Assembly: GCA_030141605.1 (NCBI GenBank)
Contig: JAQGDQ010000007.1
Coordinates: 669,173 to 733,172 of the forward strand
Length of the DNA: 64,000 nt
Direction of reading: 5' to 3'
DNA from: Tubiluchus corallicola
Lineage: Eukaryota; Animalia; Priapulida
The notes beneath the pieces were generated by a model, which ran no database searches, was not told where the DNA came from, and worked only from the letters and a program-made list of their open reading frames with translations. Of the stretch, positions 1-58,801 are shown in pieces (positions within the stretch are counted from its first letter, which is position 1; each line of letters starts with the position of its first letter). The position numbers and the translations under genes were made by a program.

Positions 1-3000
1 GGTTCCACAGGTATACCGACGCTAAGAATAGGGTTGGGTTGTGGTTTTCCTATTCCTGCCATATGCGCAATTTCTGCAGCCCACGGTCCAGCTGCATTAA
101 AACAAAAGGCAAAATGTAGCGGGTACACCTTACCATCATCCATCTTTATCTGTAATAAACGTTAATAAGTTTAACAGGTTAAATCCATAAATACGAAGAG
201 ATTACAGTAAGTTCTTACTTAGCGATACTGATGCGTTCCAGCAAAATGCGATGTTAAGCGAAACTAAGGCTTCCATAGAAAGCAGTGTAAGAGTATTGAG
301 ATACACTCCAGAGGCAGAAGTCAATGTTACTTAATTCATATAGTTTTTACATTTTAGGAATTTTATTTATATTTCAATTGATTTCTTTCTTTCTAATTGC
401 TTGAAACTACCTATCTTTTTTACCAATACCTAGCCAGCATCAATGTTGAAGTGCTAGCTATGCAATTAGCAATTTGCATAGTAAAAGCCAAGCCCCGGGG
501 AAGCCTTTTGAGACATACAGTCTAGCCTCGTTATTTCACCCCTCGTTATGCCGCCAAACTCGTCTCTCGCCATAGAAAGTACCAGGACAGATTTCCTGCT
601 TTGATGTTTACCTCTTTAAGTCGCCACCCTCGCTTCTCGCCCTCGCCACGTCATGCTAGGATGAGTGCTTATGTAAACTATATTCGTTATGCCGCCAAAC
701 AGACAAACTCAGAGGTGAATCGATCAATACATATACCGCGTGTCGATCAATATAACCGCGGTATGTAGACAATGCTGCTGTACTCGATAGACAGACATAA
801 TTAATCTAGTGTGTGTCTCACCAGGATTAGATTAGGAGTGCTGTGGTCGGTTAATGCGCAGAGAAACTAAAGTGCCAAAGCTGCGTTTTGGATGAATTTT
901 TGAAGTCCCTCAACCGCAGAATGGCGAGTGAAAACCACCATATTTTGATGCTAATGGACAATGCACCCAGTCACATCATCCCTGAGAACTTAACTCATAT
1001 CCGCAGTGAGTTCTTGCCGCCTACCACTGCCAGCCACCTGCAGCCGATGGCCGCCGGTATCATCAGTGCATTTAAGTCCCACTACCGTCGCTATCTGGTT
1101 CGCATCTATGTGGATGCAATCGACGCAGAATGTACACCAAAGGTTGAGATCGGTGACACAATCCGCTGGACAAAGCTGAGCTGGGACGAAGTGACGGAGA
1201 GCTGTATCAAGAACTGCTGGTGCCAAACAGGTATACTACCAATAGAAGCAGCAGCCGCGGACGCTGACACTCAGTCGACAGCTGAAGCCCACCGTGAATT
1301 TCGCAACCTATTTGAGTCGCTGGGTATGCCGGCTATGCTGCTGATGACACCGGCCGAGTACTTAATCACCTGTCCACCTCCGAGATGATGACTGACACAG
1401 AGATAGTTCAGCTTGTGAGTGAAGGGCAGGCCGCGCGCAGCAGCGATGAAGATGACACGGGCAGTTGCCATGAAGATGATGGCGCATCTCATGTATCGAA
1501 TGACCAGGCAGCAGCAGCTGTCGACACACTGATGCGATACTTTGAACAGTCTGACAGAGTCACAAGCGAACGATATTCAAGGATTGTGTTTGATTAGACG
1601 TCGTGTTGACTGCTTCCGTGTATCATCAATGAAACAGTCGTCTCTTCTGAATTATTTCAGTCATCAGTAACTCACTTGTGAACATTTCTAAATCTTTTGC
1701 TAAGTTTATTGCATTTAAGTGTATACTCGAAAAAGGTTTTTTAAATAAAAAAGTAACATTCTAAGATTATTTTTATGACATTTTTTCATTTCTGATTTAA
1801 TGTTGATTGGTATCATAATGCGAAATATATTTTATATGTACATACAGGAACACTATGTTAATCAACTATTATGTATATACATATAGACTAACTTCGTTAT
1901 ATTCCCGTTATCTCGCCATACTCGCCTCTCGCCAAAAATTTGCCCTAGACGGACAGTGGCGAGATAACGAGGCTAGACTGTATTTCGTCTAGATAGTGGT
2001 TACTATAGCAACAGGTCACAGGCAAGATTACTTCGCACAAAGCCTTCAAGTGAGTGAGGGCTTTGTATAGGTAGTGATTTTGTACAGGTAGCTAGCTTTA
2101 TCAGTCACGTGGGAAGCAAAAACACAAATAATAATTGTACTGTTATTAATGTGTTTTTACACCAGAATAATGCAATATGTACTGTTTCAATGCTTCAAAT
2201 TAGGTAAAAAATCTGTTGATAAAATAAAAAGTGGCTTTGAGTGACGTAAAAATCCTCGGTAAACTGAAACGTGACATTATAAGTGAAAAATAGGACTCAA
2301 ATGTTTAACGTTGGTAAAATAAAACGTCGCTAAATGGAGAGTCATCAAGAGCAAACTTACTGCATTTTATGTTTTGTTAACATTTCAAGACGTTCACCAA
2401 ATCAACAACGTGTATGAATCAATGATCACCAGCGTATTATAAACCGACAATGTATCACAGTTAGCGATGCAGTGATCAGATGCAATGAATTGAGTCAATA
2501 CTGGCATGGCAGAGGAGGGCTGAACCAAAATGAATTGAGCAGAAAATTTACTAAGCCATTGTCAACTTCTGTCAGCCAGGACAGGGGCACTGTCGTTAGT
2601 GTTCAATCGAGCTAATTTACTGTGAGTCAGCTTAAAGTGATGCTTAGGTAGCATTCCAGCCACTATTAAAACGAGTATACACACATTTGATTAAATGACA
2701 CTAGATCACAGACACCAGAGTTTGGCGGTCTCATAATCTATCAACACACTTGAAAGTTACACTTGCAGTTGGCTGAGCATTTGCACATGCACTGACACGA
2801 CACTGCACGATACAATAAAATTTTAAGTTAAAAGACAACATGAAACATGAATTTTCTGAACAGTATCGATACAGATATTACTGAACCAAATCAAATCAAC
2901 CGGTCCAGAAAGTCTGGTTTGGTGCGATCAGGCAACCAAACAATTCTTTAAGTCACTAATCAGAGTAAAGCACATGATGACTAAATATGTATAATTGCAC

Positions 3001-4594: not shown

Positions 4595-7283
4595 CATAGG
4601 TAAGCTATTATTACCCTAAATACCAGATGCCAAGCAGAGCAACAGCACATACCATTTTTAAAGTCTTTAGTATTACCCAGCAGCAGTATCAAACTAACGA
4701 CCTCCCAGACGGAAAGCGGACGCGTTACCACTGTACCGCTAAACTAAAGTACGTAAGCAAAGTGGAATAAAATCACCATAGTTCATTTTAGAAAATTAAT
4801 TAGTTACTTACACTTGTAATTTATAATTATTTTGTAAATTCTCAGCATCTTCATCTGTTGCTAAAAATAGATATCCCTGATGATGGAATTGAACGTCCGG
4901 AGGATCAGAATCTATAAATGTAAAAAGGAAGTAACTATTCACATTGCCTACATAAAACCAAAATAGTGCTTCTACCATGTTGTTACCAGTTAAAGGTTTC
5001 AAAAATGGCAGTTGTGTCTATTAAAAGACTATTGCATTTTTTTTTAGTAGACAGCGAGTAAGTGGCTAACCCAGTCTAAAACTCTAAATGCCTCCTAGAA
5101 GCCTTGCCCAGTTACGATGAAAAAATTTCTAGCTAGGAAAGATTGAGCTCGGCTAAATTTGGCATTTTCCCCATAAAGTGCATGATTATTACGCCTATTA
5201 TTAACATGCGTTTATCCCCCTATTAGAACAAGCAAATGTGTAATGCAGGTGGGAAATAATATGAAATAAACCTGAGTCAGTGCTACAAGGCCCTTTTTTA
5301 CAATTACTAATTTTGCTCACTAAAAAAAATCTACGGAAGATCATCTATTCCTTAGATATATTAAAACAACATTAGCTTTCCACTCTCTGCAAGCGACAAT
5401 CGCAAAACTTTCCGCTACTGCAGACTGCTGAGGGCAAGTTCTGAACAAAACTCATTATCAAAGCAAATTTTCTAAATGTGAATCACTAAACCAGCAATGG
5501 CATCTTGGTCTCGTGATCACATCGGACTTATCCTCCTTGTTGAGGTAAACCGTCTTCGATAAAATGGCAGATGAAACTGGTCAAGAGCAATTTCGCCAAC
5601 ACTCACTCATCCACTTACTAACTAGGTGCTGCATTGCTTAACTTCGCAGTCAAGCATGGGGCACTCTAACCATTTGATAATTTCACTCACACAAATCACA
5701 CACTAGAACTCATTATCAAAGAGTAACAACATCATCACATAAATTAAGTCTATTTACAATATTTTTCCCACATTCGGTATTTTGCCTTGATGATAATAAA
5801 TGAAAACATTTTCTTTTTTGCTTTAAATGTAAAATATAGGAAGTTTCAATCCCACCATAACCTCTCAACATTAATAGGAGAACCTAGCCCTGACCCTGCC
5901 ATTTTCAGACTATCATTGTGCCAAATTGTATAGAAAATATGTCACTACAAATTTAATTTTTAGTTACAGTTTCTTATCACAAACTTATCTCAGGTTGACC
6001 GCGATAACGCTAAACACAACTATTAAAAATGACTAGAAATTGATTAGAAAACCTGCGTCATAGACAAACTGCAATTATTTTGTGAAAAAAAATAGTGAGT
6101 AAATCTTCTGAAATGTATATACTGAATTGAACTGAAGTAACCTATTAACTTCTCTCAAACACATTAAAATTCATTGAAGACGAAACTGAGAAGTATAAAT
6201 GAAGTTGACAATGCATAAAACACAGTCGGTCTAGGCACATTGTTTGAAACAAGCCTTAAAATAAAGTAATTCACCTAAAACACTCAAATGCATTCTTATG
6301 TTCCTAAGAAATTCTGCGCCGAATAACGACATCTGGATATTTTCCGGGCAAGAGAACTGCTGCCTGATGCCTCCCACAGAAAGACAAGTAGCTGCCCTTG
6401 TATACTGAAACATAAAGGTTACAATGGTTCACAGTAACTAAACTGACAAAATATTAATCCAATTTAGAGGGTAATAGGACCTATTGACAAATTTTATACT
6501 TCATAATATTCTATACTTTTAGCTCTTGAATTAGTCTACTAGATTATTTAAATATTTACGAGAAATCAAATTTTTGATTATCGTATTTCAATATATTAAC
6601 GATACTAATTATTTCAAAATGAATAACTGAGTAAGTCTGCAATAGCCTTGCAAGCTAGTTCTTATTTTGTTGATGTTATGTCTAACTTTTGTTACATGAC
6701 AACAGCTGGCTAAAATAGCTAAAAACATCTGGCATCATGTAATGCATGGATTCAAAGTAATGCAGATGTCAGCCACCACGTGAACAGATACATCAGATGT
6801 AAGTTCAGGTATCAAACTACACACTTGTTCATAACAATTATGCAATTAAGCATACTGTACTTTTGAATCTTGCTCAACAACAGTACATGTGAAGCCCTCT
6901 GGGTTACGCTGTTTCAACCAATAGGCTATGGCGCTGCCTATAATCCCTCCACCGATTATTACAACATCTGACTCGTACGGAACTTTAATACTGGATTCAA
7001 CTGTACCGGGCATTCTTGTTACGTCGTTCTTCAGGATTCTAAGAGCTCGAAGAATGTTATTTTCTTCTGGTGGCATCTGAAAGCATTCAATTTATTAAAA
7101 AAATCCCACTAAACTGTTAAATGAACGAATTGTTTCAAGTTATAATTTACCCAAATAAATCAAGTTTATAATGGTAAACATAATCAACATATTTATTAAT
7201 TGTTTTGATTTTGGTCAGCTACTTACCTGACTGCTACCACCAGACGTTGATGACAAAAGTCGCCTTGTCACGGCCCTCCACAT
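1..7283 (-). CDS. FOXRED1: FAD-dependent oxidoreductase domain-containing protein 1 (complex I assembly factor), multi-exon, 3' end beyond window start
   Basis: Phase-consistent GT-AG exons: 7283-7227 ([19 protein letters not shown], mitochondrial-presequence-like), 7076-6861 ([22 protein letters not shown]-binding motif), 6404-6275 ([18 protein letters not shown]), 4911-4812 (QGYLFLA), 3640-3546 ([13 protein letters not shown]), 3183-3005 (ENEGWFDPW), 149-<1 ([17 protein letters not shown]...IPVEP). Confidence 0.95.
518..1980 (+). mobile_element. Tigger/pogo-family DNA transposon, internally deleted, in a FOXRED1 intron
   Basis: 23-bp TIRs: cagtctagcctcgttatttcacc (518-540) and the reverse complement of ggcgagataacgaggctagactg (1958-1980), 21/23 identical. 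TA TSD at 516-517 and 1981-1982. Subterminal ctcgttat/ctcgcc repeats. Confidence 0.92.
888..1597 (+). pseudogene. Truncated, frameshifted DDE_1 (pogo/Tigger/CENP-B-like) transposase
   Basis: [50 protein letters not shown] motifs. No N-terminal HTH. Frameshift near 1385 leads into an acidic C-terminal tail. Confidence 0.88.
4422..4593. repeat. Compound microsatellite (TAA)n/(TGATAA)n, probably the tail of the adjacent SINE
   Basis: Directly visible; it generates the spurious poly-Tyr and poly-Ile ORFs. Confidence 0.95.
4594..4740 (-). mobile_element. tRNA-derived SINE with a MetaSINE-like central domain
   Basis: Minus strand reads: A-box-like ggtacagtggtaa, B-box-like gtttgatact, then ggtaatactaaagactttaaaaatggtatgtgctgttgctctgcttggcatctggtatttaggg (resembles the Meta domain as I recall it), then an (ATT)n tail. 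Confidence 0.7.
5500..5675 (-). mobile_element. 5S rRNA-derived SINE head/5S-like fragment
   Basis: Minus strand cgaagttaagcaatgcagcacctagttagtaagtggatgagtga resembles the 5S internal control region (cgaagttaagca...ggttagtacttggatgggtga), preceded by a tRNA-like tggttagag. Confidence 0.6.
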
Positions 7284-7936
7284 CACGAAAACCTGCGTTA
7301 ACAGCTAAGGAGTTAAAAAACTAATAAAGAAAATTTAATAAGTCTTAAAATGGAATTACTAAATTAAGTGTAGCTTGGAGAAGACGACAAAAATTGCAAA
7401 CCATAACTCCAATAATGGGGCCTAGTTAAATACATACAATTTGAAGAAAAAAATCTCATTGCTCCCAATTTATTGAACCTGATGACAAAGGCAACTATCA
7501 TAGTTTGGAAGCAGAAACTATGATTAACATGTGATTTAAACATCGCCCACTTTTTACCAATAAACTGTAGATTTTCTATTTATTATCCTAATTCTTTTCA
7601 TTACAAATCGCCTTAGAGTTCTCAATTATTGGAGAAAATGCGATAAATCGATACCAATAGTGGATTCAGATGCATGTAAGCAAATATATAAATATTAGTG
7701 AATTAGCATAACGGCAGTAGTTATTAAATTTATTACCCACTGTGTAAATGTTACAAAAGTGACTATAAAATGCTATTGAACTTTAAAGATTCTGATATGA
7801 CTCATACTCATAGTCACATAATGAATTTAGGTAGCAGTATATTATGGAGTACAGTCCTACACTTGAAGCAATGCAACAAAGAATAAATTTTTGTTATTTG
7901 CTGATTGTTTATATTAGTTATTACATGATCTATCTA

Positions 7937-9960: not shown

Positions 9961-11981
9961 ATGGTAGTTCTGTTGTGTTTAGTCAATAGTTTACATTTAT
10001 GTTAATTATAATAATTATTAATTAATCTCCAGTCATCATGGGAGCTGTTGGGAATAGTTGTGAAATGATGCAGCAAGCCAATGTTTTGATTGTGAGAGTA
10101 AGCGTGTAAACTAAACTGCGCACCATATACTTTTAGAATCTCAACAAAGAGATCATGTAAAACTAGACAAGTTAAATTTGTATTTAACAAGAATAATTTT
10201 ACTCACATATAACCATTAATAATCGTCTCTGTAAAAAATTTTACAACCTTAGAAGCAACAACACAATTTAAACCATAGTCACAATACAATTTAAAACTTC
10301 AAGTTATTATCAAATAAATAAATAAATAAATAATATATATTATACAGTACACACATACACCTCACAAACGATTTTAATAGACTCTTGGAAAAATACACTA
10401 TTCTTATGTTTATTTACCCTTTAACATTAAAATTTACTTGTTTTGTTTGTCAACACGTTCCGCTTATTCAACAGCATATTTCCAACAACTGGCAGAATTT
10501 CATACTGCAAGTGTTCATCTTTATGGAGCTTTGTTTCTGTTGCATACATATTTATTAAAATTGCACGAAACATGTTAGATATAAAAAACATACTGAAACC
10601 CAAAGCTGACATGAAAAATAAAAAATTATAATGTTCTCCCAATTGGATCTGGACAACACACCCTCAATCAAACTATTTTGGTCATTTGTAAGCGAATAGT
10701 GTGTATTTCAAATAAGCATGCTTAGTACTAGTTCAAATGATATAAAAATGTCCTAAATTCACTTGACACAGAGCTGTTCAAAAGTACACCGACAATTGGA
10801 AATAAAAATGTCCAGAATAGTAAAATTATAGCAAAATGGAATAACAAACTCAGAGATAATGTTAAGCAAAGCAAATATTTTGACGTTACTTTATGATATG
10901 ATAACCTTTGAATAAGTTTTAAATATCCTATGAAAAACAAGCTCACTAAGACATATTTTAGTGTAGCATCTGAAGCTGTAGCCGGGTAAAAATTAAAAAA
11001 ATTGTCAGTGTCCTTTTTGAGAAAAATCATCTAATAAGCCATTTATAATTGATGCCTTGTTAACCAACAGCTGCTAGAGACAAAATGAGAATGATACATC
11101 AATGAGCTCTGCAAAATGACTGATATATTTAAAGCCTTTACAAAATAAAAGAAATATTATCCTACTGGAGAATGTGATATATAACGTCATACTTATAAGG
11201 AGTCCCCAATTAAGACTAGTGGGGTATCCAGTCCAGTAAAGTTTAAAGTGAAGATTCCATAGGTTGGAGATAATCCTCCTATGATACTAAATTCTATAAC
11301 GTAAACAAAAACTGAGAGCAAATCTGCATTGGAATTATATAACATAAATTCGATCATCAATCCAACAAGAGTTGACGAGAGAGTCAATAATTTCATAATT
11401 TGCCGTCAAATTGCGGGATAACTTCTTCGCATAGCCACCACCACTATAAACTGCACTTCTGCCTGAAAAAGAATTAACTATTGGAAATACACTAGTATTG
11501 ATGTTCCCCGAGTTGATAACAGGAACTAGCTTAAAAAAATTAGAAAAAGTGCCAGAAATTAATGTGCAAAAAGCATGTTTTCTGTGCAGCAAAAATACTT
11601 TGCAATTGCCAACAAGAACATGTGCCTCTAATCTAAATTTCACTGTAAAACCAGACTGCAGGACATATTTCTCAGAAATGAAAATAAACTGCAAGCTGCA
11701 GTCAAAAGTCTTTATAACGTCAGTTCTGGGACACCACTTATAGCTGGGTTGGCGGTAAGGTGTGGTTCAACAAAGATTAACAACCTGCGCTGAAGCCAGA
11801 GAAGATGCAAACTGGGTCACCTGCCATGGTTTCACAGATTCATTGATTACAAAAAGATTCTCTTACCTACTCCATTCTCGCTCACTTCACACAAAATAGG
11901 ATCACACTAAAAATTTAACTATTGATGCACTCTAATGCTGACTGTGAGCATCTGCTAGAAGAAGGATTTCCTGTGTCACAG

Positions 11982-12055: not shown

Positions 12056-12520
12056 CGGCTACACTTACAACTCATCATAATTCTCATGTGACCATACTCA
12101 CCAACCCCAGCTTAGGAAAATAGTGACCATTTGGTCCCATGAACCTGACTGCAATAACCCAGGTGCATTACAGACAAAGTGCTTATTTAACTATGATAAT
12201 TTACTTTTACTGTGCAATCTTACATAACTGAGCTGTCTATTTTTAATGTGCTAATCTTGGAATGGTTTTTCACTGAAATATTGTAGGCCTATGGGTAGTA
12301 TCTGCATCTATCTGTATACATATCTATCAATTCGAAATACTGAAATTCGGTTCGATTCGAATTCGAAAGTCGCAAATTCGATTCGGTTTGAGTTTGCTTT
12401 CTCTCAAAGAATGCTCACCCGTATTTAGGATTTGTATGAACGTTTCTGTGGTCTTATTATCTTATTATTATTACTTTGGTCGCAGTAGCTTCTCTTGAAC
12501 GCCCGTAGTCATGGTGCGCC

Positions 12521-15500
12521 ATGGTAGAGAGTGGAATGGCAGCTTTTCATAATCTGAAAAATGATATTAAAACTGAGGAAAATGGACATTTTTATGAAGA
12601 CGCGAAAGATTATTGGTCTCAAATTCCTGCGACAGTTGAAGGAATGTTAGGCGGCTTTGGTCGATTGCATCCTGTTGATATTCGTGGATCTGCAGGTTTT
12701 CTCATGCAGTTTATTAGTGTACGCGTGAGCTATTCCCTGTTATTTTTACTAATCACAGTACTTATCGTTTGACTTTACATTTAGGTATCATTTTACCTTT
12801 TAGGGATTTCTTATATCGACAGTGGTTGAAATGTTTGTTATTCAGCAGAAATTTTGACTCAGATGTTCCCCAAAAAGGGGGAAATGGCCCTTACGATTTG
12901 TAATACTAGCACTCCTTGTTTTAGCTAAACCTTCACAAGTGTGACGTCGTGTAATAATTAAGTTAGGACGTTTGGAAATCAGAGTACTGTGTTCAGGGTT
13001 CTCAAGCGTTTCCGTCACTTTTATACGACAAATTTACAGGATAATCATTTATTCGTGTAGGCTACGTGAATCTGTGTCACTGGTGAAACACTTGTGTGCA
13101 CGTGCAAATTAGTTAATAAGAACCAAAACGGAATTAAGAACTAATATTTATATTTCAAATTTAATCAGTAAAACGACAATAGCAAAATTAAATTGATAAC
13201 AATTTCCAACAATACCTAATTCCCCCAAAAGTAACGTTGGTCGGCTCGGTTCTGTCTTTCATCAGGCTTTTGGATCTAGTAACCACGCTCTCCAATCTTC
13301 AACCATGGCACATCATCTTTTCGTCTTCACTAGTCAGCCATGCCCTCGCTAGCAACTCTGTGCCATTGGTCACCAATCCAGCCTCTGTATGGACCACGCT
13401 TAGAAGCTGCTTCAGCAATCCAGCGGCTGAACTCATACCTGGTTGCCTCAGGATTGAAGTCATGCTTGCTGCCTCAGACTCCACGTAATAAAGCCAGATT
13501 TCGTCCTTTTGCAGAGTGACAAACAGAACCTTCAGTTCAGACAAACAGACAGACCATTAGTCCAGGTAGAACTTCAATCATGTGGTCCTCGACTGGTCTT
13601 CCACTACTCTCCAGGGTCCTGCTTTGCAGGTAGAAATATGGTTACTAAACACTTGTCTCTAAGAATGTTAAGCTAGTGCCGTCACAGCAAACAACGAATA
13701 AACAAAAGCAGACAAAACCATTGTCTTTGTCATAAATCATCTCACTGCATATGAGTGCCATTAAAGACAGGTTCACACCAAACTTGGTGTTCAGCCATAT
13801 AAAATAACCTCAGGGAGTGGACCAACCAGCAAAACTCTACTACCCTGTAACTTTGACAGTCAGAACACATCTAATGTAAAACACGAACTCTGTATTAAGA
13901 TCCTAAAACAGGTTTAAACCATTTGGTATTCGAATTTTCAGGTAACCTAATTATAGGTAAACAGAGAAATGAGCAGCTAGAGCCATCTAATGTCAAAATC
14001 TTGCAAAAACACGCAATGTTATATAGGTTTAAATAAACAGTGCAATAAATCAATAAGGTAATTAATTATGCACACATAACATCATATGAAAGATATATCA
14101 CAATAGGTGTTGCGACAATGATGGGTCGTCTAACCGATCATCACAACAGGGCTTTGCGTGCTGATGGACAGCTCCTCTTGAACATGCTCAGTAATTGCTG
14201 ACTGTACAATTGCATTAACTTACATAATCAGCAGCCTATCTAAAAAGTCACTTTACACAGTTTAGCAGTTGCTGTTAACACCTTCGCATTTGTACATAGC
14301 CATTGTTGTACTAATAAAGTTTTTATTTTTGTATATCCCTTTTTTGTACATCTAATGTTACAGATGTTCACTAGCTTTAATTTAGTAATGTAAGAGCATT
14401 ATGGCTTCACTTGTGCCAACACTCCCCTCTGTCACATTGGTTACATCCTACTTGTGATGTAGGCATTACTACTTAACTGTTAGCTTCTGCCCAGTCTGAG
14501 CTTCTCTGTTATAAGCCAGCTGTAACATTACCACCTTAAGCTGATGAGTCTGTTGCTATGAAACTTCTTTAATGTCTTCAATAAAATAGTTTATTTTGCC
14601 TAAATCTGTGCTGTTTTGGTTTTTCTTATTAGTGACTTTACAGTAACTCTACAGCTTATAAAACTTTTGAAGTATGGGATAACAGGCATCAGTTACAATT
14701 GGTTTTCAAGTTACTTATTTGGTAGGCAGCAAAGGGTTCTTTCTAGAATCTAGCTGTGAGAAATTTCTTCTGGCATCCCACTGGGTTTCATCCTAGGTCC
14801 TCTTTTGCTCGTCATGTCTATGAACGAGCTTTCCTTTGTTCTAAGTTAACGGACTCAAAGGTTACAATATGCAGATTACCCACCTGTTCATAAAGCTGTG
14901 ATATCTGAAGCTGATCGGGACGCTATTCAAGTTGACATTAGTAAAATGTTTGAATGGAGCAATTTCAATATATATACATATATGCTGTCTTTTAATCATT
15001 TAAGCAGAAACAATGAGGCTAATGTGGAGTAGAAATTTAATTAGGTGCAGATAACATGGCTGATCAACTTATACTTTGGTTAATCATCTATCCAAGTGTT
15101 GGATGTCACAAGCATCTGGAAGTGTTAGTCTGATTGAACATACTTGTAAAGGTTGCCACGCTAACGTCCAGAGATAATCTTACAGATGTCCCATTGACTA
15201 TAAGTTGATATCTCACTAATGGTCGAGGCCTCTTAAGGGGTTGTAGTGAAGGTATGGAAGTTTAAGAGCAGCCCCATAAAAATTTCAAATTTATTAGTAT
15301 TTTCACCACTTATATGTGTTTTCACTGACAATACAGCCACTACATCTTCATGAATTTTGATTATCATTAGAAATGAATTTGTGATTTAAAACTGTGATGC
15401 TTAGTAGCATAATATGACTTTGTCACCTTATATGTTAGAGACTGTTCCTTCACTAAGGAACTCGTAAATCACTTCTATCATTTTGCTTGTACGCAATATG

Positions 15501-16393
15501 AAAATAATCATTCTGTAAAACGTTTCGCCTACCTAAACACTTCTTGTTTGATGTTGCTTAACTGCTGAAGATAGTAGTTAAGAGCTCTATGAAGTTTCTA
15601 GTAGAACACATACTGGTTAGTGACTAGCCTAGGTGGTAAAGCTACTTCCCAGGGTAATTCTGAAACCATCTGTCAGCACCGTAACACTTTAAAGTTTTAA
15701 TCCAGTGTATAGTACTTGAAGTTTTAAGCTGGGACTCTGGTGCAGTGTAGCCACTGGCCTGTAATTAATGCTGTTGCAAAAATGAATACATCTTATCCTC
15801 ATAGCAGCAGGCCTATTTATATAACTAGATCGCCTATAATAACTGCGTGATTGTGCACAAATGCCCCAGACAAACGTTCTACTACTGCCAAGCTCGCACG
15901 AGGTTTTATTACTTGAGGTGCAGTTACAATTTGGTATATCCATGCGCCCTGGCTCATCCCAAAAAAGTAATAATTACTTTGTAACATTCAATTTTGGTAA
16001 CTATTAGAATGTGAAACAATTTTGCGATTTTTGCTAAGAAAAAAAGGAAAATGTGTAAACTTTTTTTCATTTAAAAATTCAGTAAACTTGAAGTAAAAAT
16101 TTGTGTCCCTCCGTCGGAAGAAGTGTCCTGCAGGACTCCGTTAGTCGACGAAGATTTTCAAAGCCCTGCTGTCATTGCTGTATAACAGCATATGTAGTCC
16201 CATCCCACCATAGAATATGTTGCTCCAGTCTGAGTCCTCTTCACTAGTATCTGATTAATAGGGTTGAACAAATCCAAAGATGCCTTACCTGTCACTAGAG
16301 ACAGTAGAAGACTGGCGTGCACCACTTCACATGACCTCTCTCCAACTAAGGACGCTTTTCTCACTGAATACTGTTCGTATATATATTCATTAG

Positions 16394-16437
<44 letters not shown>

Positions 16438-19400
16438 TAGCCAATCACTTTTGACTAAATACTAGACGTGATACACAGGTCTATTATTACCATATCAGCT
16501 TTGTAGAATGGACAACCTTCGTTACTCCATTTTTTGTTAATAATGTGTTTGAATGGAGCAAACTGCCATTTCTTTCAGGTTATCCTGTTTTTATAACACA
16601 TTTATTTGGGGTGCACATATGTTTTTTAAGTCAGTAACGTAGCTTGCAAATAATAAGTTGAAGCTAGTAATAATTAAGCCCAAGCCTAACACTGGGTATC
16701 TACAACAAAAATTGAGTTTTGCAGGTGAGCCTGGTTGGGTGGGGACATTAAAAATATTACTTTTACGTAGATTGTCATACTATCCAGTGGCAACCCTGTG
16801 TTTTATACACTTTGACACTATTTCATTTTTGTTATTGATATAACATTCATGTATAATTCAAAGATATGCTTTCTCATTTCAATTCGTATTCATCACATTT
16901 TTTTAAGATTCTGCTAAGTTTCATGAGCTTACATCAATTCTTCTTAAGTTCACGTAAAATTTTGTATCATCTTTTGTGTTTTGAGTTTTTGCTAACTTTT
17001 ATTCAGTTTTACATCAACTTTTTTAATGTAAAATTTGTGTATAATTCTAAAACATGCATTGTTATTTTAATTTTTATTCATCTTGTGCTTTTTTAAGTTT
17101 TCGCCAAGTTGTATCAACCTCGCATTGGTTTATTTCTAATTTATTTAAATTTATTAATTTTAGGTTGTGTACATCTGCTTTAATTTTTTTTTTTTTAATT
17201 TTAATGTCTGTGGTCAGACCATTGAGGGACAGTTATAGTTTTTAGGCTTTTACTCAAGAGCTAAATTACTTTTTACTTATTTTATTACCTTTTTTTGTAA
17301 ACTGTAATTTTTCTTCAATAAAATAAATAAATAAGTAATAAAACAGTAACTTGAACAGTCATAAGAATTCCATTATGTACTGCAGTACTGTGTTGCGTTT
17401 GACAACCATAATATTGCTGTATAATTACACTATAATAACATTGTATAATTAAATACCAAGAAATCTCAAGCGATAGAGGCTTTTTATAGCCTCCTGCCAG
17501 CATAAAATCCGTATGTTATGTTACTTGATTTTCACCCCTGAGGTTATGATTACATGCATGTGATGCGGTGTAATCAATTACAGTGTGTTCTTTGACTTTG
17601 GAGTTGTTTGCATGTCTAAAAAACTGGTTCCAACATCTAAGTGTTCAATCTTTATATAGAAGTCAGTGTGTTGTAGATAAGCTGGACCTTTCAGCCGGCT
17701 ATGTAAATAAGTTAAACTACCCTCGCAAATATTAATTTATTTGGTAATAGGTACGTATCTGCTCTCTGCACTTTTCTATTAAGGTAAATGTATTTGGGGT
17801 TTGCTAATTGTTTGAGACCCAATTTTACTCAACAAAGAATAGTATTTTTGCTATAACAAATATTTGACCTTTATGTTGAATATTGAATAGATATATTGTA
17901 CAGCCCAGCAACTGCTGATCTGTATATGTGTACTTATTGTAAATATTACATATTTGTAAAAATGTCTGGTATGATTTGACCAAAGTTCAGTTTTGTATAT
18001 ATGCTCACTTACAGGTGTTCGTACTGTCCGAGATATAGTTCAATGACCGCAGCAACATAACTTCCAGTCTTCTACACGCAGATGCACAATGGGAAAGACT
18101 TTACTGCTCAGTTCAAGTATCTGCAAGCTTCGAATTTTCATACGGCAACTCAGCAGTTTTTGTAACAGAACCTCATTTAGAAAACGATGTGACTGTTCAC
18201 GGGCAGCTAGACCTAAATTAAGGTTTCTTGCAAGTTCAGGTGATGCATCTTTTGATCAAAAATGGAACAACTGTGCGTCGCTGACGACATCAGTTAATCA
18301 GAGCTATGTCTCATATATAGCAACGCAGAATCCCGGTGCTGCAACAACGTATCAGGATCTAAAGCGCTTCCTGGATACGGTAGGATCGGACCCAAAAGAA
18401 GTTCGCTATTGGATGAAACAGTTTCAGCAAGTGAACGATCCGTACAAGCCCTTTGCGGTCGTCATGGTCGAAGAGGATGTGTTTACCAGACCAGACATGC
18501 TCAATGACCTTTGCTCTGGCTTGAGCTTTCTCCATCGGAACGGCTTAAAATCAGTGATAATACATGGCCAAAGAATTCCATACAGGATGGAAGTTACGTA
18601 CACATATCTACAGCAATCAAAAAGGAAGTTTGTTGCAGATACGATCATGCTAGTCAATGTACTTGAGTCACATGGGGTCTCTGCCAGACCTCTGTTCAGC
18701 AGTAATGGTCTCCTTCTCGCAGAGAGATTACATCAGGACAGGTTTGGTATGCTTGGGCGTCTTAAAAAGGTAAATGTTGAACTGATAAAATGGTGTTTGG
18801 GCACTAATCACATTCCAGTTATATATAGCATTGGTGAAACTGATGGCTACCAATTGCTGGACTTGGATTGTTTGAACACTCTTCAGCATGTGTCCGTCGC
18901 TCTTGGACCAAGAAAGGTGTTGATGCTGAATACGACTGGCGGAATTCATGACATAGATGAAGCAGTGATTGGATTGGTAAATATGCCTGGTGATTTAGAT
19001 GATTTACTAAACCGACCGTGGTGCAATGAAGAGCTCAGGGAGAGACTGTATTCTATAGCAACAATGCTTGATAACATCCCCGACCAAAGTTCTGTTGTAA
19101 TTACTTCTGCTGACACCATTGTTACTGAACTCTTTACCCACCATGGTTCTGGCACTCTTTTCAAGAACACTGAAAAAATTTTGAAATTCACCAGTTTTGA
19201 TGACGTGGATTTAAATAGACTGGATCATTTGTTTACCCGATCATTTGGCCGTCGACTCAAACGTGATTATTTCTCTCTGATCAAGGAGAGATTGGGTGTC
19301 TTGTACTTATCAGAAGGTTACAGTGCGGCAGCTATAATTACGAAAGAAGCCAACTTTGACGTCCCATACCTGGATAAGTTTGCTGTGACAGTGCAGTCTC

Positions 19401-21935
19401 AAGGACAGGGTACTGCGGAGATGCTATGGGAGTCCATACGACAAGATTTCCCAATGCTGTTCTGGAGGTCACGTCATGTTAATTATATAAATCCTTGGTA
19501 CTTTGCCCGCAGTGAAGGTAGTTGGAGTAATGGTAGGTGGATCGTATTTTGGAGAGGACTGTCTGACCCAAAAGTTTCTTATGCACTTGTGGAGTATGCA
19601 CTTAGTTTACCTGAATCATTCGAAGCTTTGACTGATTCAGTGATAGAAACTGAACAACCTTAGCACAAAGTTCAAGTATGGAAAACTATTAAAATCGACA
19701 ATTGGTGCAGTTACAGATACTCATAAAATTTTTATACACATATTGTTTTTTGACCGGTAAAAATTTTAGCTCACCAATTTTTATTGTTAGTACTTTATGA
19801 TTAAGTTTTGCATTATATTCAAGATTACATATCAGATTGTATTAAATTGTTATCGGTGTTGTTATTACTATTGTAGAAATTATTATAATATTATATGTAA
19901 TCAGTATTTAAAAATGTCTATTCATTGTTATTTTATAGTTAGTTTTTTACTCATCTTACCAATTTCATAAGTGTAAATATCTAAATAGCAATTTGATATA
20001 CATCATTTGTTGACATGCATTTATTTATGCACATAAGGTCAAGTAGTTTGAAGCAAACATAAAATTTATTTTTTTCTTTTTCCTTGATATTTAATGATGT
20101 TGGCAAATAGTTAAGGAGTCTAGAATAACATGTGTTGTTATTTCATAAATCCCTCGCAGAATTTAGTATTTAAATGATTATAAAAAATCATTTACAAATA
20201 GGAAAATAAGAATAAAAACATGTGCATCTTACTTTTTACTATGTAATATGAGAACTTAGTATTCAGTTTTTCAACGGAAGTACAGCATGATCAGTTGACA
20301 TGTACAGGAAACTCTGCTTAACTCAAATTTTCACCTAACTCAAAGAAATTCAGCAGAACAGATGAAATCCTTCGTTTTCCTGTTATTATGGTCCATTTAA
20401 TTAAAATACATGTAATTTACTTCGCCTAGCTCAAAAATGCAATTTATACTCAAAACTACAACTCAAAAACAGTATTGTCTTCCGGGAAAATTCTGATGTC
20501 TTACAAGTCGCTCCCCGCTTTTTTACAACGGTTGTGTTGAAATATATGCGAAGCTGGTTTGCAATAAATAGCAAAATAGTGGTATTTTTACTTACAATAA
20601 ATTTATTTCACACTATTTAAATGTTGGCTAAAATATATCACGAGTAAAAGACTGTAGGATATTGGTTTGAAGCAGCATAGTACGGCTTATTTTTCGTTAC
20701 AACTTACACTTACTAAAAGCATAACTGTTATTTTACATGTTACAATGTCATGCATATTGCAGATTGACTTTTTTAATGTTGTTATTATGAATTAAAAGCA
20801 GCGATAAATTAATGATTAATTCTGTTGGCTTTTATGATGTTCTCACCTGTATTATAGGAGTTTGGTTTTAATAGCTACAACTAACAGCTATATCACAGCA
20901 ATAATTTCCTTATCTATTACAACTGTTAGTGTTAATGACTACAATTAACTGATAAAAGCAAAGAGTCAAGTAGCATTTCTCTATAATCTTGGCATACACA
21001 CAATTAACCGATAAAAGCAAAGAAAGTCAAGTAGCATTTCTCAAACTGTTTTGCATTTTGCTGGTAACTTGGTATAGGTGTATAATTCAGAGAGTTCACT
21101 TCTACCTTTTGTTAGTGTTCTCTTTTCAAAATTTTTTCCAATTTTTGTAGTGTGTTGAGCACTGAACAACTGACTATTTTTTATTCTCGATAGGGTTATT
21201 ACACAAAATGAACAAGTTACACTAAATAGCATTGCACATTACAACTGGTATGGCGCTTAGGAACTAATCTTGCCAAAACTTTAAAACTAAAACAGAACCC
21301 ACACTATCAGTGCTTACAGTTCGATTGTTATGAATACTTCCTGTAAAATTTGTTGAACATTTATGCCTGCATGCAGAGAAAATAGTAATAGTGTAACAAA
21401 ACCCAAGGACAGGTCTTTTCATTTGTAGGAGCATCACGTTGGGACAGAGAGAGCACTAGATTGTGGAGCAGGGATTGGTCGCATCACAAAGCACCATCTT
21501 CTCCCAGTGTTTAAGACTGTTGACATGGTAGAACTGAACCAGTCATTCCTCGACGAAGCTCCTAACTACCTCGGCGATGACGTTAAACGAATCGGGCGAT
21601 TTATCTGCAGTGGGTTGCAAGAGTTCACACCTGAGGGAGGACTCTATGATGTCATCTGGATACAGTGGGTCCTCGGACATTTGACCGATGAACACCTTGT
21701 AGCCTTCTTCAAAAGATGCAAAGCCGGTTTAAAGGATAAAGGTGTCATATTTGTGAAAGAGAACATGGGATCAAGTCATGAAACAGAAATTGATGAGCAG
21801 GACAGCAGCCTCACCAGACCAAGGCATGCATTTGTTCGATGTATTGAAGAAGCTGGGCTTAGAATCTTGCACGAAAAGAAGCAGAAGGGGTTTCCTAAAG
21901 AAATCTATGAAGTGAGAATGTTTGCTATACGGTAG
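12521..21935 (+). CDS. NTMT1: N-terminal Xaa-Pro-Lys N-methyltransferase 1 (two coding exons)
   Basis: Exon 12521-12718 (or to 12724; both donors are phase 0): FYEDAKDYWSQIPATVEGMLGGFG. Exon 21429-21935 after tttgtag, phase 0: ALDCGAGIGRITK (SAM motif I), YDVIWIQWVLGHLTD, VKEN, DSSLTR; stop TAG at 21933-21935. Confidence 0.93.
12940..14145 (-). mobile_element. Solo LTR (~1.2 kb)
   Basis: TGTGACG...CATCACA termini with a near-perfect 5-bp TSD (acaag 12935-12939, acagg 14146-14150). Orientation is inferred from a minus-strand AATAAA about 100 bp from the left end. Confidence 0.65.
14690..14970 (+). mobile_element. Degraded LINE RT core fragment
   Basis: SGIPLGFILGPLLLVMSMNEL ... QYADY ... DRDAIQVDISKMFEWS, corresponding to GVPQGS.LGPLLF and the YADD region. 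Confidence 0.8.
16180..16330 (+). mobile_element. Degraded LINE RT C-terminal fragment
   Basis: PTIEYVAPV*...INRVEQIQR, corresponding to P.LEY...VW...I..LE.IQR. Confidence 0.6.
16396..16434. repeat. (AT)n microsatellite
   Basis: Directly visible. Confidence 0.95.
18089..19663 (+). CDS. NAGS: N-acetylglutamate synthase, mitochondrial (metazoan AAK-like + NAT/DUF619 type), intronless CDS nested in the NTMT1 intron
   Basis: 524-aa open ORF with an Arg/Ser-rich presequence, DLKRFL..VGSDPKEVRYW...KPFAVV, arginine-site TELFTHHGSGTLF, and NAT motifs YLDKFAV...QGQGT and FWRSR..NYINPWYF.RSEGS. Acceptor ctcacttacag at 18004-18014; AATAAA at 20211. Confidence 0.93.
   Translation: MGKTLLLSSSICKLRIFIRQLSSFCNRTSFRKRCDCSRAARPKLRFLASSGDASFDQKWNNCASLTTSVNQSYVSYIATQNPGAATTYQDLKRFLDTVGSDPKEVRYWMKQFQQVNDPYKPFAVVMVEEDVFTRPDMLNDLCSGLSFLHRNGLKSVIIHGQRIPYRMEVTYTYLQQSKRKFVADTIMLVNVLESHGVSARPLFSSNGLLLAERLHQDRFGMLGRLKKVNVELIKWCLGTNHIPVIYSIGETDGYQLLDLDCLNTLQHVSVALGPRKVLMLNTTGGIHDIDEAVIGLVNMPGDLDDLLNRPWCNEELRERLYSIATMLDNIPDQSSVVITSADTIVTELFTHHGSGTLFKNTEKILKFTSFDDVDLNRLDHLFTRSFGRRLKRDYFSLIKERLGVLYLSEGYSAAAIITKEANFDVPYLDKFAVTVQSQGQGTAEMLWESIRQDFPMLFWRSRHVNYINPWYFARSEGSWSNGRWIVFWRGLSDPKVSYALVEYALSLPESFEALTDSVIETEQP
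20941..21042. repeat. Short direct duplication (~42 bp)
   Basis: acaattaactgataaaagcaaagagtcaagtagcatttctc is repeated as acaattaaccgataaaagcaaagaaagtcaagtagcatttctc. Confidence 0.8.
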
Positions 21936-23072
21936 CGCATGACAACTCGAATGTGCCAAATGTCATAGTGTTTAGTTTCTAATTTGTGGTTTTAACTTTG
22001 TTGAATTGTTTTACGTGACTTTTTGCTCGCAACATTTAATAGAACGTTATAATTGAAAAGTTTGACCATAAGTGTTTTTTTAGTATTACTAGTTACTGAA
22101 CATTTATTCAACACTATCACCTGATCAATTTTCATTTGCTTAATAGCATGCAAGTATGATGTCCTTGCTTTGGCATTTATGAAGTGGAATGTGTATTTGA
22201 TGTGCAAAGGATAAGACGTCTGGTGTCATCTGACACTTCATACATAATTGTTGCTAAATCAATTAGTAGAAAAGTTTGCTAGACATGTTTGTATTTCTCT
22301 TTAATTTGTCTCTTTAAATTGTACATGTGTACCTTTTTACCATTTAGACCTTAAATATGCTCTGTTAAGAAAAGCATAAATGAGAAAATATACTGCAACT
22401 ATTATTTTATAAGAATATTTTTATTGTGTAGCTTTATATTTTAATATGCGTCGTTTGTGTACTGCTTTTGCACTGACACTAAGAACTCAGCTGCATAAAT
22501 ATTTTCCGTTTTTAGGACATAAATTTTTAAACTCCAATTCTTCTGTATTGGATGCAGGTGGTAGTACAGTAAGAGAACCCAGTTCTGTTTATCTAAGACA
22601 GTACAACAAGAACCTAGTTCTGCTTGCTTAGGAATCGTAGGATGTGGACCTGGATGTGAAAGAATGCTTTCTTTACTCCATCTATTTTTCTTTACAAAGT
22701 ATGTGTAGCATATGTTTTGTTCTTTTATTTCAGAAAGGGCATAACTCCCGCTCATACATTGAGAAAATGCACTATGCTCCATCTATGTAGGAAAGCGCAT
22801 TATGTAAGAGTCCCATTTGATGTATGTGGGAAATATGCAACATCAAATGTGGTGGCAACTTTACAAGTCAAGAAGTCAGTGATATTTTACATAACCGTAA
22901 GGGTGTACAAATGAAAGAAAAATCTAAATTTAGTATCCACTCTTGCTGTTAGAATTTTCCCCCATTCTAGCACACAATGTATGTTGCCTAATTATGATGT
23001 GGGCATAAATCATTTCATAAAAAATAATGCACTTATATAACCACTCAATGAAACATTTATTTTAAACTTCCA

Positions 23073-26000
23073 TTAAGATTTTACAGCAAATTTTCTCATA
23101 GGATACAATCTTTGCTTCTTCTGCTGCTTTTTAGTTCTTAAAGATAGTTCATGCTTGGTTAGGGCTCTCCGCATGGCACGGGTTTTCTTTGGTCGCAAGT
23201 CAAGAGGCTTGAACTTTTTTCCTTTATGGAATTTTCTCAAATTTTCCTTCTGTGTCTGGTTTATGACAGTTAAAACTCGTGCGATTGATTTCCTTACAAC
23301 ACGTCTGAAAAAATACAAACAAAAAATTTGAATGAAAACACAAGTATTGTCCAATATGCAAAATTTGATATAGTAGGCGCCACTTATTAGACTCACGGTT
23401 AATAGAATCAGTCGAAAATTGACTCAAAAAAGCATCTATTCAAATGTATATAAAAACCAATGGCAATCGACTCAAGATTTGAGATCATGCCTAAATTAAG
23501 GCACTTTTGTGTCACCTTTACTCCATAATGTACGTAGAAATAATCATGTTAAGAGCCATTTTGTTTGTAAGCAGGTAACATGCATTAATATGCTAGCGCA
23601 AAGGTTTTGCTTTGAATTTTACTTCGGCTCGTCCGGTGCAATTAACCTCTTTGTTACTGGAAACTAAACATTTAATCACCTGCCTAAATATGATTTTGAA
23701 GCTCTTGCTGCTTTTCAGAGGAAACACCGGCATCACCAACTGCAGCTCAAGCACAAGGTGTTTGAATAAATATGTGCAGCATACACTAACAGATTTTCAA
23801 CATTTTTACTGGTATGAGAACTTTATAAACCAACGTCTTCGTTAAGAAATGAAGCAACCGACCTTGCAATAATTTTTAGTGCAAATAAATCAATTTAAAT
23901 TATTTTTGTTTTTATTAATTCACTTATAATTCATTTTTCAAATTATAATGCATATACTAAGCTGATGACACACTTCTAAGCTAATAATACAGTACTACAC
24001 CCATAGATTCAGCCAGTCAAAAGGCGCCTACTGTACTTCATAATTATTGCAAATTTAAAGCCTTTTCTAATTCTGATGAATTGAAGCTTTTATTGCAGAA
24101 CTAAAATTCCATATTACATTGTGCATGCAGTGATAATACATTACACACATCACTATATCAACGAAAAATACAAATAAAGCAAATTATAGCATATACAATA
24201 ATAATAATAACTAGCCGAAGCCCCGCAAAAAATTTTGCATATAAATCCACTTCTAATCAACAGTGTACGAACACCCTACATAGTGTTTTGTTTATTTAGC
24301 TAATGCAAAGCCAGCAACAGTTTTTAATGAATTAAAGTTACAAAGTTATAGGCAGAGCTCAACGGATGACGTCAGAACAATGGCTTTGCATCAGCAGCTT
24401 TCTGAGGGAGAATCGCCCAAAATGGAACCTCTAATCAACTTGTGACTGTGCTCCTTCTGGTGAAAACAACCCCTAAAGAGACCCACATCACGTTGTAACC
24501 CTGTTCCTCCTCTTTCTAAAGAGCTATATATTTCTTCCTGAGAGCCCCATCAGGCGGTTCGATGATGTACGCACATGTATGGTATGAACTTCCTATAGCA
24601 GTTTTTTCAAGATTAATTTGTGACTTCTTAACGACATTGTTTTGTAAAACACAAATGCTCTCAGTAGTGATCACACCACTAGAGCATCACTAATCGGCTT
24701 TAGTGACGGAGTCTAGTGATAGCTCTATGAATTATATACCACCGCATTATAAACTTATCTGATTGTAGACTGCACCATTGCATTCAAGAGCTAGTAAACT
24801 AAAATATACTACAGGACTGCTTTATATTCCTAATAATTGGTTAAAATTAAGAATTATAACTTAGCTACCAACATAAACATTCCTAACTAGACATAAGTAC
24901 AGTGCAACTTCCATGCTAACAAGCATCTTGACTGGTTTGACAATACCTGTCACTCACTTACATTTTTGAGAGTTTTGAGGCGGCACCACCAGTGACTTTT
25001 GCAACTCGCAGGGCAGACAGTTCTTGTTTCAGTTCTTCTAACTGCTTTAACAAATCTTCCTTCCTCTTTCCACGCAGTTCGTGTGCTTTAACTTTAGCCT
25101 AAATAAACAAATTCAAAATTTGACGTTACAAAAAACATATATCTCTTACCACCCTTTGTAGATACATTACATTTTCTCAGTGTCAGACTTATATGGATAC
25201 ATGAGGCAAAATTAAAACCGTGCAGTCACAGAATCAATTAAGAAAGGGGTAGATGCTCAGTGGTCGTACGGTCTTTCTCCACCCTTTCTCTATTTTTAAG
25301 TATTAATCAGTACTAGCATTTTGTTACACGCTTGCTGTATAAGACAAAAAAAATAAAATTGATAGTTGTAAGGCATCACAACATATATAGCCTAATTTTT
25401 AAAATGTAAAAACCAAATAGCAAAACTTCCAATTAAGAAGTGAGGAGTTCAGACAAACCAATTGAGATACGCAAAAAACGGGTTAATAAATTACTGTAGA
25501 TCGACAGGGCGAAGCCTATAAGTAGGCTTTTTGCCCATAGTTGTCTCTCTTGTTAAACCTCTGTTAAAGTGTTATTGTTTTATCATATTTTCTATCTCGC
25601 ATTTTACATTTATGTTATCTTTCCAAAGTTGTCTCAAGCGGAAATGCTGCCTAGCAGCAGTTATCATGGTATGGTGAGGAAGCAAGGTCAGAAGGGCCAA
25701 CGGGCCATGCGTGCTGGTTTATGATAAACTGAAATGTTGTTGGAGATTTGAATTTAAAAAAAACGTTTAGAGTCCACTAACGCCGCACTAAAGCTAACAG
25801 CTGCAAATTTATAAAGTCTAGGGGGTAAAATTCTTGTCATTTAGCAACATAGCCAGTTTACAGATTACAAGCAAATAAAGAAAAATGGAATGGAGGAAGA
25901 GAAGGGTCTACGAAGACATGAAACGTGAAATACATATCCTTCTAAGTATCTACAAAATATAAATTGTTTTTTCTAAATAAAATTATAAATGCGAAAGTAG

Positions 26001-58596: not shown

Positions 58597-58801
58597 AAAA
58601 GAGCAATTTCATAGGTTAATGACCCACTGAACGCTGATGCTCATAGCATATATACATAGCATATGCACATAGTGGAAAAATTGCACCGTGCAGGATTGTT
58701 ACTATACAGGAAGCATGTCACGTAAACATCAGAATTCACGTGTTCTTTTTTATGTGCTGCTCAGTGCTGCCCATATTACGTGAAGACTATCAGTGAGAAA
58801 T

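What the first reader, a model, noticed from the sequence alone, without database searches (positions are those of the whole stretch)
12481..21935. Complete intronless NAGS nested on the same strand inside the NTMT1 coding intron
Seen: the two NTMT1 coding exons (12521-12718 and 21429-21935) join in phase 0 across an 8.7-kb intron. That intron holds an intact 524-aa NAGS ORF with its own acceptor (18014) and AATAAA (20211). Known: nested genes are more often antisense, and same-strand nesting forces competition between splicing and polyadenylation. Inference: every NTMT1 pre-mRNA must skip the NAGS exon and poly(A) site, so the locus may switch between two unrelated enzymes, a protein N-terminal methyltransferase and the activator-producing enzyme of the CPS/arginine-urea pathway.
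Basis: partly seen in the sequence, partly recalled or inferred. Interest (0 to 1): 0.85.

Follow-up and report, generated by a model that had tools for sequence, protein, structure and literature searches.

The report
NAGS borrows NTMT1's first coding exon
In a likely priapulid worm, an intact, intron-free gene for the nitrogen-metabolism enzyme NAGS sits inside an intron of the unrelated methyltransferase gene NTMT1, and a close relative's sequence indicates that its message is likely spliced onto the host's first coding exon, so one promoter would make either enzyme and the borrowed exon would become a short upstream reading frame in front of NAGS.

Summary
Observation confirmed. NTMT1 coding exons (12521/12536-12718/12724 and 21429-21935) flank an intact, single-ORF, 524-aa NAGS on the same strand, and no other NTMT1 first exon lies in the window. 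New evidence: an unnamed Logan protein of a close relative (P0241, 71 aa) is NTMT1 exon 1 followed by the tail and stop predicted for the splice 12724->18015, the best of 1,488 donor-acceptor pairs. Its contig has the same length (2,870) as the one holding that relative's NAGS. So NAGS mRNA likely starts with the host's coding exon, which becomes a 70-75-codon upstream ORF, while NTMT1 needs the splice across NAGS (inferred from conservation of both exons, not seen in RNA). The intron is old; in Priapulus caudatus the two genes lie on different scaffolds, so NAGS likely moved in later. This works like Su(var)3-9/eIF2-gamma and the cholinergic locus, but out of frame. The scan has noted this layout before for other gene pairs in other genomes (NSUN2/MDN1, XPG/NAA38-APC10). 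A regulated switch is untested. New member of a known kind.

The parts
12511..12552 (+). 13-codon upstream ORF overlapping both NTMT1 start codons; only relevant if transcription starts before 12511 (unknown)
   Evidence: sequence
12521..12724 (+). Shared first coding exon: NTMT1 N-terminus (start 12521 or 12536); ancestral-position donor after 12718, stronger donor after 12724
   Evidence: Pfam, PDB 2EX4/5CVD match, P0241, donor scores 5 and 6 of 9 and spacing
12725..18014 (+). 5.3-kb GT-AG intron removed in the NAGS mRNA; holds high-copy repeats at about 12930-14670
   Evidence: junction match; repeat depth in run X1
16579..16724 (+). Candidate non-coding cassette or alternative 5' exon (donor 8 of 9 to consensus); no evidence of use
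   Evidence: skipped in P0241
18015..18038 (+). Start of the NAGS terminal exon: 7 codons and the stop that end the exon-1 reading frame, 50 nt before the NAGS start
18089..19663 (+). Intronless vertebrate-like NAGS, 524 aa: basic presequence-like N-terminus, AAK-like domain, NAT domain
19664..20620 (+). NAGS 3' UTR with AATAAA at 20211, 20563 and 20596 (site used unknown)
   Evidence: sequence
21429..21935 (+). NTMT1 terminal coding exon (SAM-binding core), intact
   Evidence: Pfam, human NTMT1 structure sequences E 1e-53, 66% to Priapulus, 101 of 107 to P0131

Best explanation
An intact, intronless NAGS gene lies inside the conserved coding intron of NTMT1, and the two likely form one transcription unit in which the first NTMT1 coding exon is spliced either to the NAGS exon, with the transcript predicted to end inside the intron, or across NAGS to the last NTMT1 exon. 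Shown: the anatomy in the window, and a relative's 71-aa protein that reads exon 1 into the NAGS exon. Inferred: that this protein comes from a spliced mRNA; that NTMT1 is made by skipping NAGS (both exons are conserved and neither is a whole enzyme); that NAGS arrived later as a processed copy, captured the host's promoter through a splice acceptor, and was kept. In the NAGS mRNA the borrowed exon is out of frame and stops 50 nt before the NAGS start, so NAGS would be translated by re-initiation or leaky scanning, probably at a low level. That mRNA has no exon junction after the early stop, so it would escape junction-dependent decay. The ratio of the two mRNAs would be set by the race between the near acceptor plus intronic poly(A) site and the far acceptor.
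For: P0241 (71 aa, 85% to exon 1) ends, after the last exon-1 motif, in VYVYALSEM and a stop. The window gives VR from 12719-12724 and VFVLSEI-stop from 18015-18038: 5 of 9 identical, same stop position. This is the best of 1,488 donor-acceptor pairs (score 24, next 15; intron read-through -9), and 18015 is the best of 127,948 six-frame positions for the part after the junction (22, next 19). P0241 and the relative's NAGS P0001 each lie on one contig of 2,870 bases; the window's exon 1 plus NAGS exon to AATAAA 20563/20596 would fit that length. Conservation against the relative: exon 1 domain part 41 of 45, exon 2 101 of 107, NAGS core 417 of 444, against 60 of 80 in the NAGS N-terminus and 4 of 7 in the leader tail. 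The intron is old: 23 of 24 exon-2-only ORFs from other assemblies have an acceptor-like Q 9-14 residues before the DCG motif, 17 at exactly 13, against 20 of 71 full-length controls with any Q at 9-16. Priapulus NAGS and NTMT1 lie on records of 292,259 and 207,493 bases. Human NAGS has seven exons (PMC6194121, passage). CpG o/e is 0.92 at exon 1 and 0.41 in the 1.5 kb before NAGS. An RNA-like run holds a NAGS piece in which 6 of 7 listed differences are silent.
Against: No nucleotide junction was seen: the contigs of P0001 and P0241 could not be read, so same contig and RNA origin are inferred from equal length and from the peptide. No record joins the NTMT1 exons; no full-length NTMT1 of the close relative was among the 120 best of 594 hits listed, and P0131 has an unexplained foreign N-terminus. 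The leader holds 10 AUGs before the NAGS start, and upstream ORFs over 55 codons are predicted to block re-initiation (PMC4705651, passage), so this mRNA may translate NAGS poorly. The first 450 nt of the NAGS exon are also CpG-rich (o/e 1.0), and many non-promoter stretches score as high. No target-site duplication or poly(A) remnant supports retroposition, and the exon structure of Priapulus NAGS is unknown.
Confidence: 0.78

Rival explanations
1. NAGS protein comes mainly from another 5' end (own intronic promoter, the candidate exon 16579-16724, or an upstream non-coding exon that skips exon 1). The exon 1 -> NAGS splice is real but minor or unproductive leakage.
For: 10 upstream AUGs and a 70-75-codon ORF in the shared-exon leader; a strong donor at 16724; acceptor-like sequence just before exon 1 near 12485-12488 (sequence); CpG-rich start of the NAGS exon.
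Against: The only junction on record is the exon 1 join, and an assembler kept it on what appears to be the full NAGS contig; CpG o/e is 0.41 upstream of 18015.
Confidence: 0.12
2. In the relative, exon 1 and NAGS are adjacent in DNA (no 5.3-kb intron, or a processed copy), and the intron in the window is a later insertion. NAGS mRNA would still share exon 1, but by read-through in place of splicing.
For: The contig's molecule type is unknown; the intron is rich in repeats.
Against: The stretch missing from the relative's product begins with GT and ends with AG exactly at a consensus donor and acceptor.
Confidence: 0.05
3. NTMT1 is not made from this locus: the insertion cut the gene, or exon 2 is misplaced by the assembly, and exon 1 survives only as a NAGS leader.
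For: No joining record for NTMT1; odd N-terminus of P0131; no canonical plus-strand poly(A) hexamer between 21935 and 23100; no DNA contig bridges the locus.
Against: Both exons are intact and 91-94% conserved against the relative, while the leader tail and presequence drift; consensus acceptor at 21428; no N in the window; X1 contigs over both exons have similar low depth (17.9, 19.5) and the window holds no second copy.
Confidence: 0.05

Closest known systems
Su(var)3-9 / eIF2-gamma gene fusion of insects (PMC1435931; passages read)
   Same: An unrelated gene sits as one large exon in a conserved coding intron of a housekeeping gene; two mRNAs arise by 3' alternative splicing from one promoter; retrotransposition is the proposed origin; the shared part is about 80 host codons.
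   Different: There the shared exons are in frame and give both proteins a common N-terminus. Here the join is out of frame, stops after 7 codons, and NAGS has its own start and presequence-like N-terminus.
Cholinergic gene locus, VAChT inside the first intron of ChAT (PMC3469465; passage read)
   Same: Same-strand nested gene that shares the host's first exon.
   Different: The two cholinergic proteins work in one pathway and the layout is kept in mammals, fly and nematode. NAGS and NTMT1 have no known functional link and the layout is absent from Priapulus caudatus. Whether the shared cholinergic exon is coding was not checked here.
UTP14 retrogenes in host genes: Utp14b in ACSL3 intron 1, UTP14C in ALG11 (PMC5750009; passages read)
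   Same: An intronless copy of an unrelated gene lies inside a host on which it depends; UTP14C's 5' exon overlaps host coding sequence and shares a host splice junction.
   Different: UTP14C lies in the host's last exon and has its own start site inside the host's exon 3; its parent gene is known, whereas no parental NAGS could be looked for here.
Bicistronic animal mRNAs such as SNURF-SNRPN, RPP14-HTD2, CERS1-GDF1 (named in PMC4705651; passages read)
   Same: A downstream enzyme would be translated behind an upstream ORF by leaky scanning or re-initiation.
   Different: There the upstream ORF is a whole protein; here it is a cut-off piece of another gene's enzyme.

Membership tests
Vertebrate-like NAGS | AAK-like domain followed by NAT domain over the whole length | tested here: met
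   Residues 80-513 align with NAGS/K structures 3S6K and 3S6G, and the NAT part with human 4K30; Pfam NAT.
Vertebrate-like NAGS | Invariant NAG-binding and catalytic residues (human F399, L442, D443, K444, F445, R474, R476, N479, Y485, W498) and the (R/Q)xxGx(G/A) CoA motif | tested here: met
   Residue lists from PMC3722096 and PMC4490483 (passages), mapped by hand on the 4K30 alignment and found by motif: all ten present, F525 kept, K401 is R.
Vertebrate-like NAGS | Groups with animal NAGS, not bacterial NAGS/K | tested here: met
   Best named hit Priapulus caudatus 59%; sister to it at SH-aLRT 100 in a quick tree of 41 animal-side rows, no bacterial rows included; bacterial structures score far lower.
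Vertebrate-like NAGS | Mitochondrial import and enzyme activity | not testable with these tools
   First 50 residues have 12 R/K and 1 D/E; no predictor or assay was run.
NTMT1 (PF05891) | Both parts of the family profile present, intact and joinable in frame | tested here: met
Shared-first-exon nested locus (Su(var)3-9/eIF2-gamma or cholinergic type) | Nested gene on the same strand, wholly inside one host intron | tested here: met
Shared-first-exon nested locus (Su(var)3-9/eIF2-gamma or cholinergic type) | Host first exon spliced to the nested gene | tested here: met
   At protein level in a close relative only: P0241 tail; nucleotide junction not seen.
Shared-first-exon nested locus (Su(var)3-9/eIF2-gamma or cholinergic type) | Host mRNA spliced across the nested gene | tested here: inconclusive
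   No joining record; inferred from conservation of both exons.
Su(var)3-9/eIF2-gamma type in the strict sense | Shared exon in frame with the nested gene (common N-terminus) | tested here: not met
   Both donors give a stop at 18036-18038; the NAGS frame is closed upstream of 18047.
Retrogene | No introns where the parent has them; parent copy, poly(A) remnant or target-site duplication | tested here: inconclusive
   Intronless here, seven exons in human; no flanking duplication found; no genome held, so no search for a parent; Priapulus exon structure unknown.

The most novel reading that the evidence does not exclude
The captured host exon has become a translational control device for NAGS. 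The 13-codon ORF at 12511 lets ribosomes bypass both NTMT1 starts and re-initiate, while the 70-75-codon NTMT1 fragment acts as the inhibitory ORF, an ATF4-like layout built from a piece of another gene that would tie NAGS output to amino-acid status, on top of a splice/poly(A) choice that trades NAGS against NTMT1.
Probability: 0.12. Interest if true: 0.75.

Novelty: new member of a known kind. Interest (0 to 1): 0.42.

Why it matters
It is a well-supported case of a moved gene surviving by capturing a host's promoter and coding exon out of frame, with the cost that its mRNA carries a long upstream ORF. That makes it a compact test of how far animal ribosomes can reach a downstream start, and of how an essential host tolerates an acceptor and poly(A) site in its intron. 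It also dates a gene move inside a little-studied lineage and warns that annotation will miss or fuse such genes. The principle is known, and the scan has met it in several other genomes, which limits the surprise.

Tried and rejected
No whole genome is held, so no search for second NAGS or NTMT1 copies. No RNA holder was listed for the stretch. Two stretches were laid, so a joint between exon 1 and the downstream exons could only have shown as loose ends; the RNA-like run X2 did not cover exon 1, the 18015 junction or exon 2, which is no evidence either way. Run X1 covers introns, may be the source sample, and no listed piece exceeds 1 kb, so it does not test the assembly. A metagenome scan found no related locus (63 pattern matches, 0 confirmed). 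The search of cluster representatives was not used for exon structure. An in-frame NTMT1-NAGS fusion was rejected (stop at 18036-18038). An alternative NTMT1 first exon downstream of NAGS was rejected. Long RNA pairings that would loop out NAGS were not found (only short AT-rich matches). A bacterial origin of NAGS was rejected. CpG content is only a weak promoter hint, and the control at the ribosomal-protein gene failed because its first exon was not located with confidence. The careful tree did not finish; the quick tree is used. Paper searches without a hit: NAGS+NTMT1+intron, NAG synthase+invertebrates+intronless, NAG synthase+Priapulus, NTMT1+NAG synthase; the library is open-licence only and no supplements were read.

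Full report
Observation. The described parts are in the sequence. A first NTMT1 coding exon starts at 12521 (or 12536) and matches Pfam PF05891 positions 4-45; a second at 21429-21935 matches positions 56-217. Both match human NTMT1 chains in the PDB. They join in phase 0 from either of two donors 6 nt apart, 12718 and 12724. Between them, on the same strand, is an uninterrupted 524-codon ORF (18089-19663) with an acceptor ending at 18014 and AATAAA at 20211, 20563 and 20596. It is a vertebrate-like NAGS: it aligns over residues 80-513 with solved NAGS/K structures and keeps all ten invariant substrate-binding and catalytic residues listed for human NAGS in PMC3722096 (passages), mapped by hand on the 4K30 alignment. 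tblastn of 120 NTMT1 homologues finds no third exon or alternative first exon in the window.

Organism. The best named hits of both genes are from Priapulus caudatus (59% and 66%), and the NAGS is sister to the Priapulus protein at SH-aLRT 100 in a quick tree of 41 rows (the careful search did not finish). A priapulid or a relative is likely; this is inference from two genes.

How NAGS is transcribed. A search with exon 1 alone returned one protein among one candidate: P0241, 71 aa, 85% identical, from an unnamed Logan contig of 2,870 bases. The relative's full-length NAGS, P0001 (91%), also lies on a single contig of 2,870 bases. After the last exon-1 motif P0241 continues for nine residues and stops. 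In the window, donor 12724 adds two residues and the sequence from 18015 adds seven and a stop; five of the nine are identical and the stop falls at the same place. Of 1,488 combinations of 3 donors and 496 AG sites this join scores highest (24; next 15; read-through into the intron -9), and for the part after the junction 18015 is the best of 127,948 six-frame positions in the window. The simplest reading is a spliced mRNA in which NTMT1's coding exon 1 is joined to the NAGS exon. Exon 1 plus the NAGS exon to the 20563 or 20596 signal would leave 296 or 263 bases for exon 1, close to the 244 from 12481, but the relative's UTR lengths are unknown. Limits: the contigs could not be read, so same contig and RNA origin are inferred. 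Separately, run X2, which shows a spliced joint in the neighbouring ribosomal-protein gene, holds a 161-base NAGS piece with 9 differences; of the 7 listed, 6 are silent third positions and one is a V to L change also present in P0001. That is weak evidence that NAGS is transcribed and conserved in a relative.

Is NTMT1 still made across NAGS? No record shows the join. The inference rests on conservation against the relative: 41 of 45 residues in the domain part of exon 1 and 101 of 107 in exon 2, like the NAGS core (417 of 444) and unlike the NAGS N-terminus (60 of 80) or the leader tail (4 of 7). Neither exon covers the whole profile. Donor 12724 gives the 33-residue motif spacing of 62 of 71 homologues, 12718 gives 31, seen in none, so one donor probably serves both mRNAs. 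Against: P0131, the relative's exon 2 product, begins with 12 residues that do not match the window, which I cannot explain, and no canonical poly(A) hexamer follows exon 2 before 23100.

Order of events. The intron is old. Among 24 exon-2-only ORFs from other assemblies with enough upstream sequence, 23 have a Q (a likely CAG acceptor, mostly after pyrimidine-type residues) 9-14 residues before the DCG motif, 17 at exactly 13; 20 of 71 full-length controls have any Q at 9-16. The arithmetic puts that site at the window's 12718 donor, so the working junction here appears shifted by two codons. In Priapulus caudatus the annotated NAGS and NTMT1 lie on records of 292,259 and 207,493 bases, so they are not nested there unless a second copy exists. 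Human NAGS has seven exons (PMC6194121, passage). A processed NAGS copy that landed in the intron and captured the host's exon is the likeliest origin; no flanking duplication remains, no parent could be sought, and a DNA-level move of an already intronless gene is not excluded.

Mechanism. One promoter near 12400-12500 (CpG o/e 0.92 there, 0.41 in the 1.5 kb before NAGS, 0.59 window-wide; a weak hint) would give one pre-mRNA. Use of the near acceptor and an intronic poly(A) site gives the NAGS mRNA; use of the far acceptor gives NTMT1. In the NAGS mRNA exon 1 is out of frame: it forms a 70-codon (from 12536) or 75-codon (from 12521) upstream ORF ending 50 nt before the NAGS AUG, which has A at -3 and G at +4; ten AUGs precede it. 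PMC4705651 (passages) reports a prediction that upstream ORFs over 55 codons block re-initiation, and also names exceptions and bicistronic mRNAs thought to use leaky scanning or re-initiation. So NAGS output is probably low. The early stop lies in the last exon, so junction-dependent decay would not be triggered (established knowledge; see PMC3951408, abstract and outline only). A 13-codon ORF at 12511 overlaps both NTMT1 starts and ends 246 nt before the NAGS AUG; it could carry ribosomes past the long ORF. The likeness to ATF4 control is recalled, its conservation was not tested, and the transcription start is unknown.

Comparison. The layout works like Su(var)3-9/eIF2-gamma (PMC1435931, passages: one large exon in a conserved intron, two unrelated proteins by 3' alternative splicing from one promoter, retrotransposition proposed) and like the cholinergic locus (PMC3469465, passage). 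It fails the strict Su(var)3-9 feature of an in-frame shared N-terminus. UTP14 retrogenes are further parallels (PMC5750009, passages). Four searches of the open-licence library found no paper on this pair. Unchecked notes of this scan describe the same layout for other pairs in other genomes, and one of them led me to PMC1435931.

Verdict. A regulated switch between the enzymes is untested. Interest 0.42.

Noticed in passing
window 10731-11766, minus strand: Decayed, intronless polycystin-like remnant: three neighbouring ORFs in different frames match consecutive parts of Pfam Polycystin_dom and PKD_channel, with stops between them. Likely a processed pseudogene just upstream of NTMT1.
   Followed up: partly
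window about 6230-7303, minus strand; candidate donor at 12419: FAD-dependent oxidoreductase gene (Pfam DAO; FOXRED1-like by recall) pointing away from NTMT1. Its first coding exon has an acceptor before the start, so a non-coding exon lies further up; one candidate donor at 12419 would put it head to head with NTMT1 on one promoter. Four other candidates exist.
   Followed up: partly
window 23073-25099, minus strand: Ribosomal protein gene (RPL35 by recall; no Pfam hit for the ORF scanned) converging on NTMT1, stops 1.1 kb apart, with a repeat at 22205-23174 between them; run X2 shows its spliced joint 23304-24965.
   Followed up: partly
protein P0131 (matches window 21600-21932): The relative's NTMT1 exon 2 product starts with 12 foreign residues that repeat a three-residue motif and look like an acceptor region; it may mark an extra intron or insertion in the relative that the window lacks.
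   Followed up: no
window 12719-12724 and 21429: The NTMT1 junction appears slid by 6 nt against other animals: the ancestral donor GT is still present, exon 2 starts two codons later, and the downstream donor restores the length.
   Followed up: partly
window 58784-60151, plus strand: Second long intronless ORF (455 codons) with a DUF1647 match.
   Followed up: no
window 855-1388, plus strand; 12329-12385; 12930-14670: DDE transposase remnant and high-copy repeats right before exon 1 and in the 5' part of the intron.
   Followed up: no
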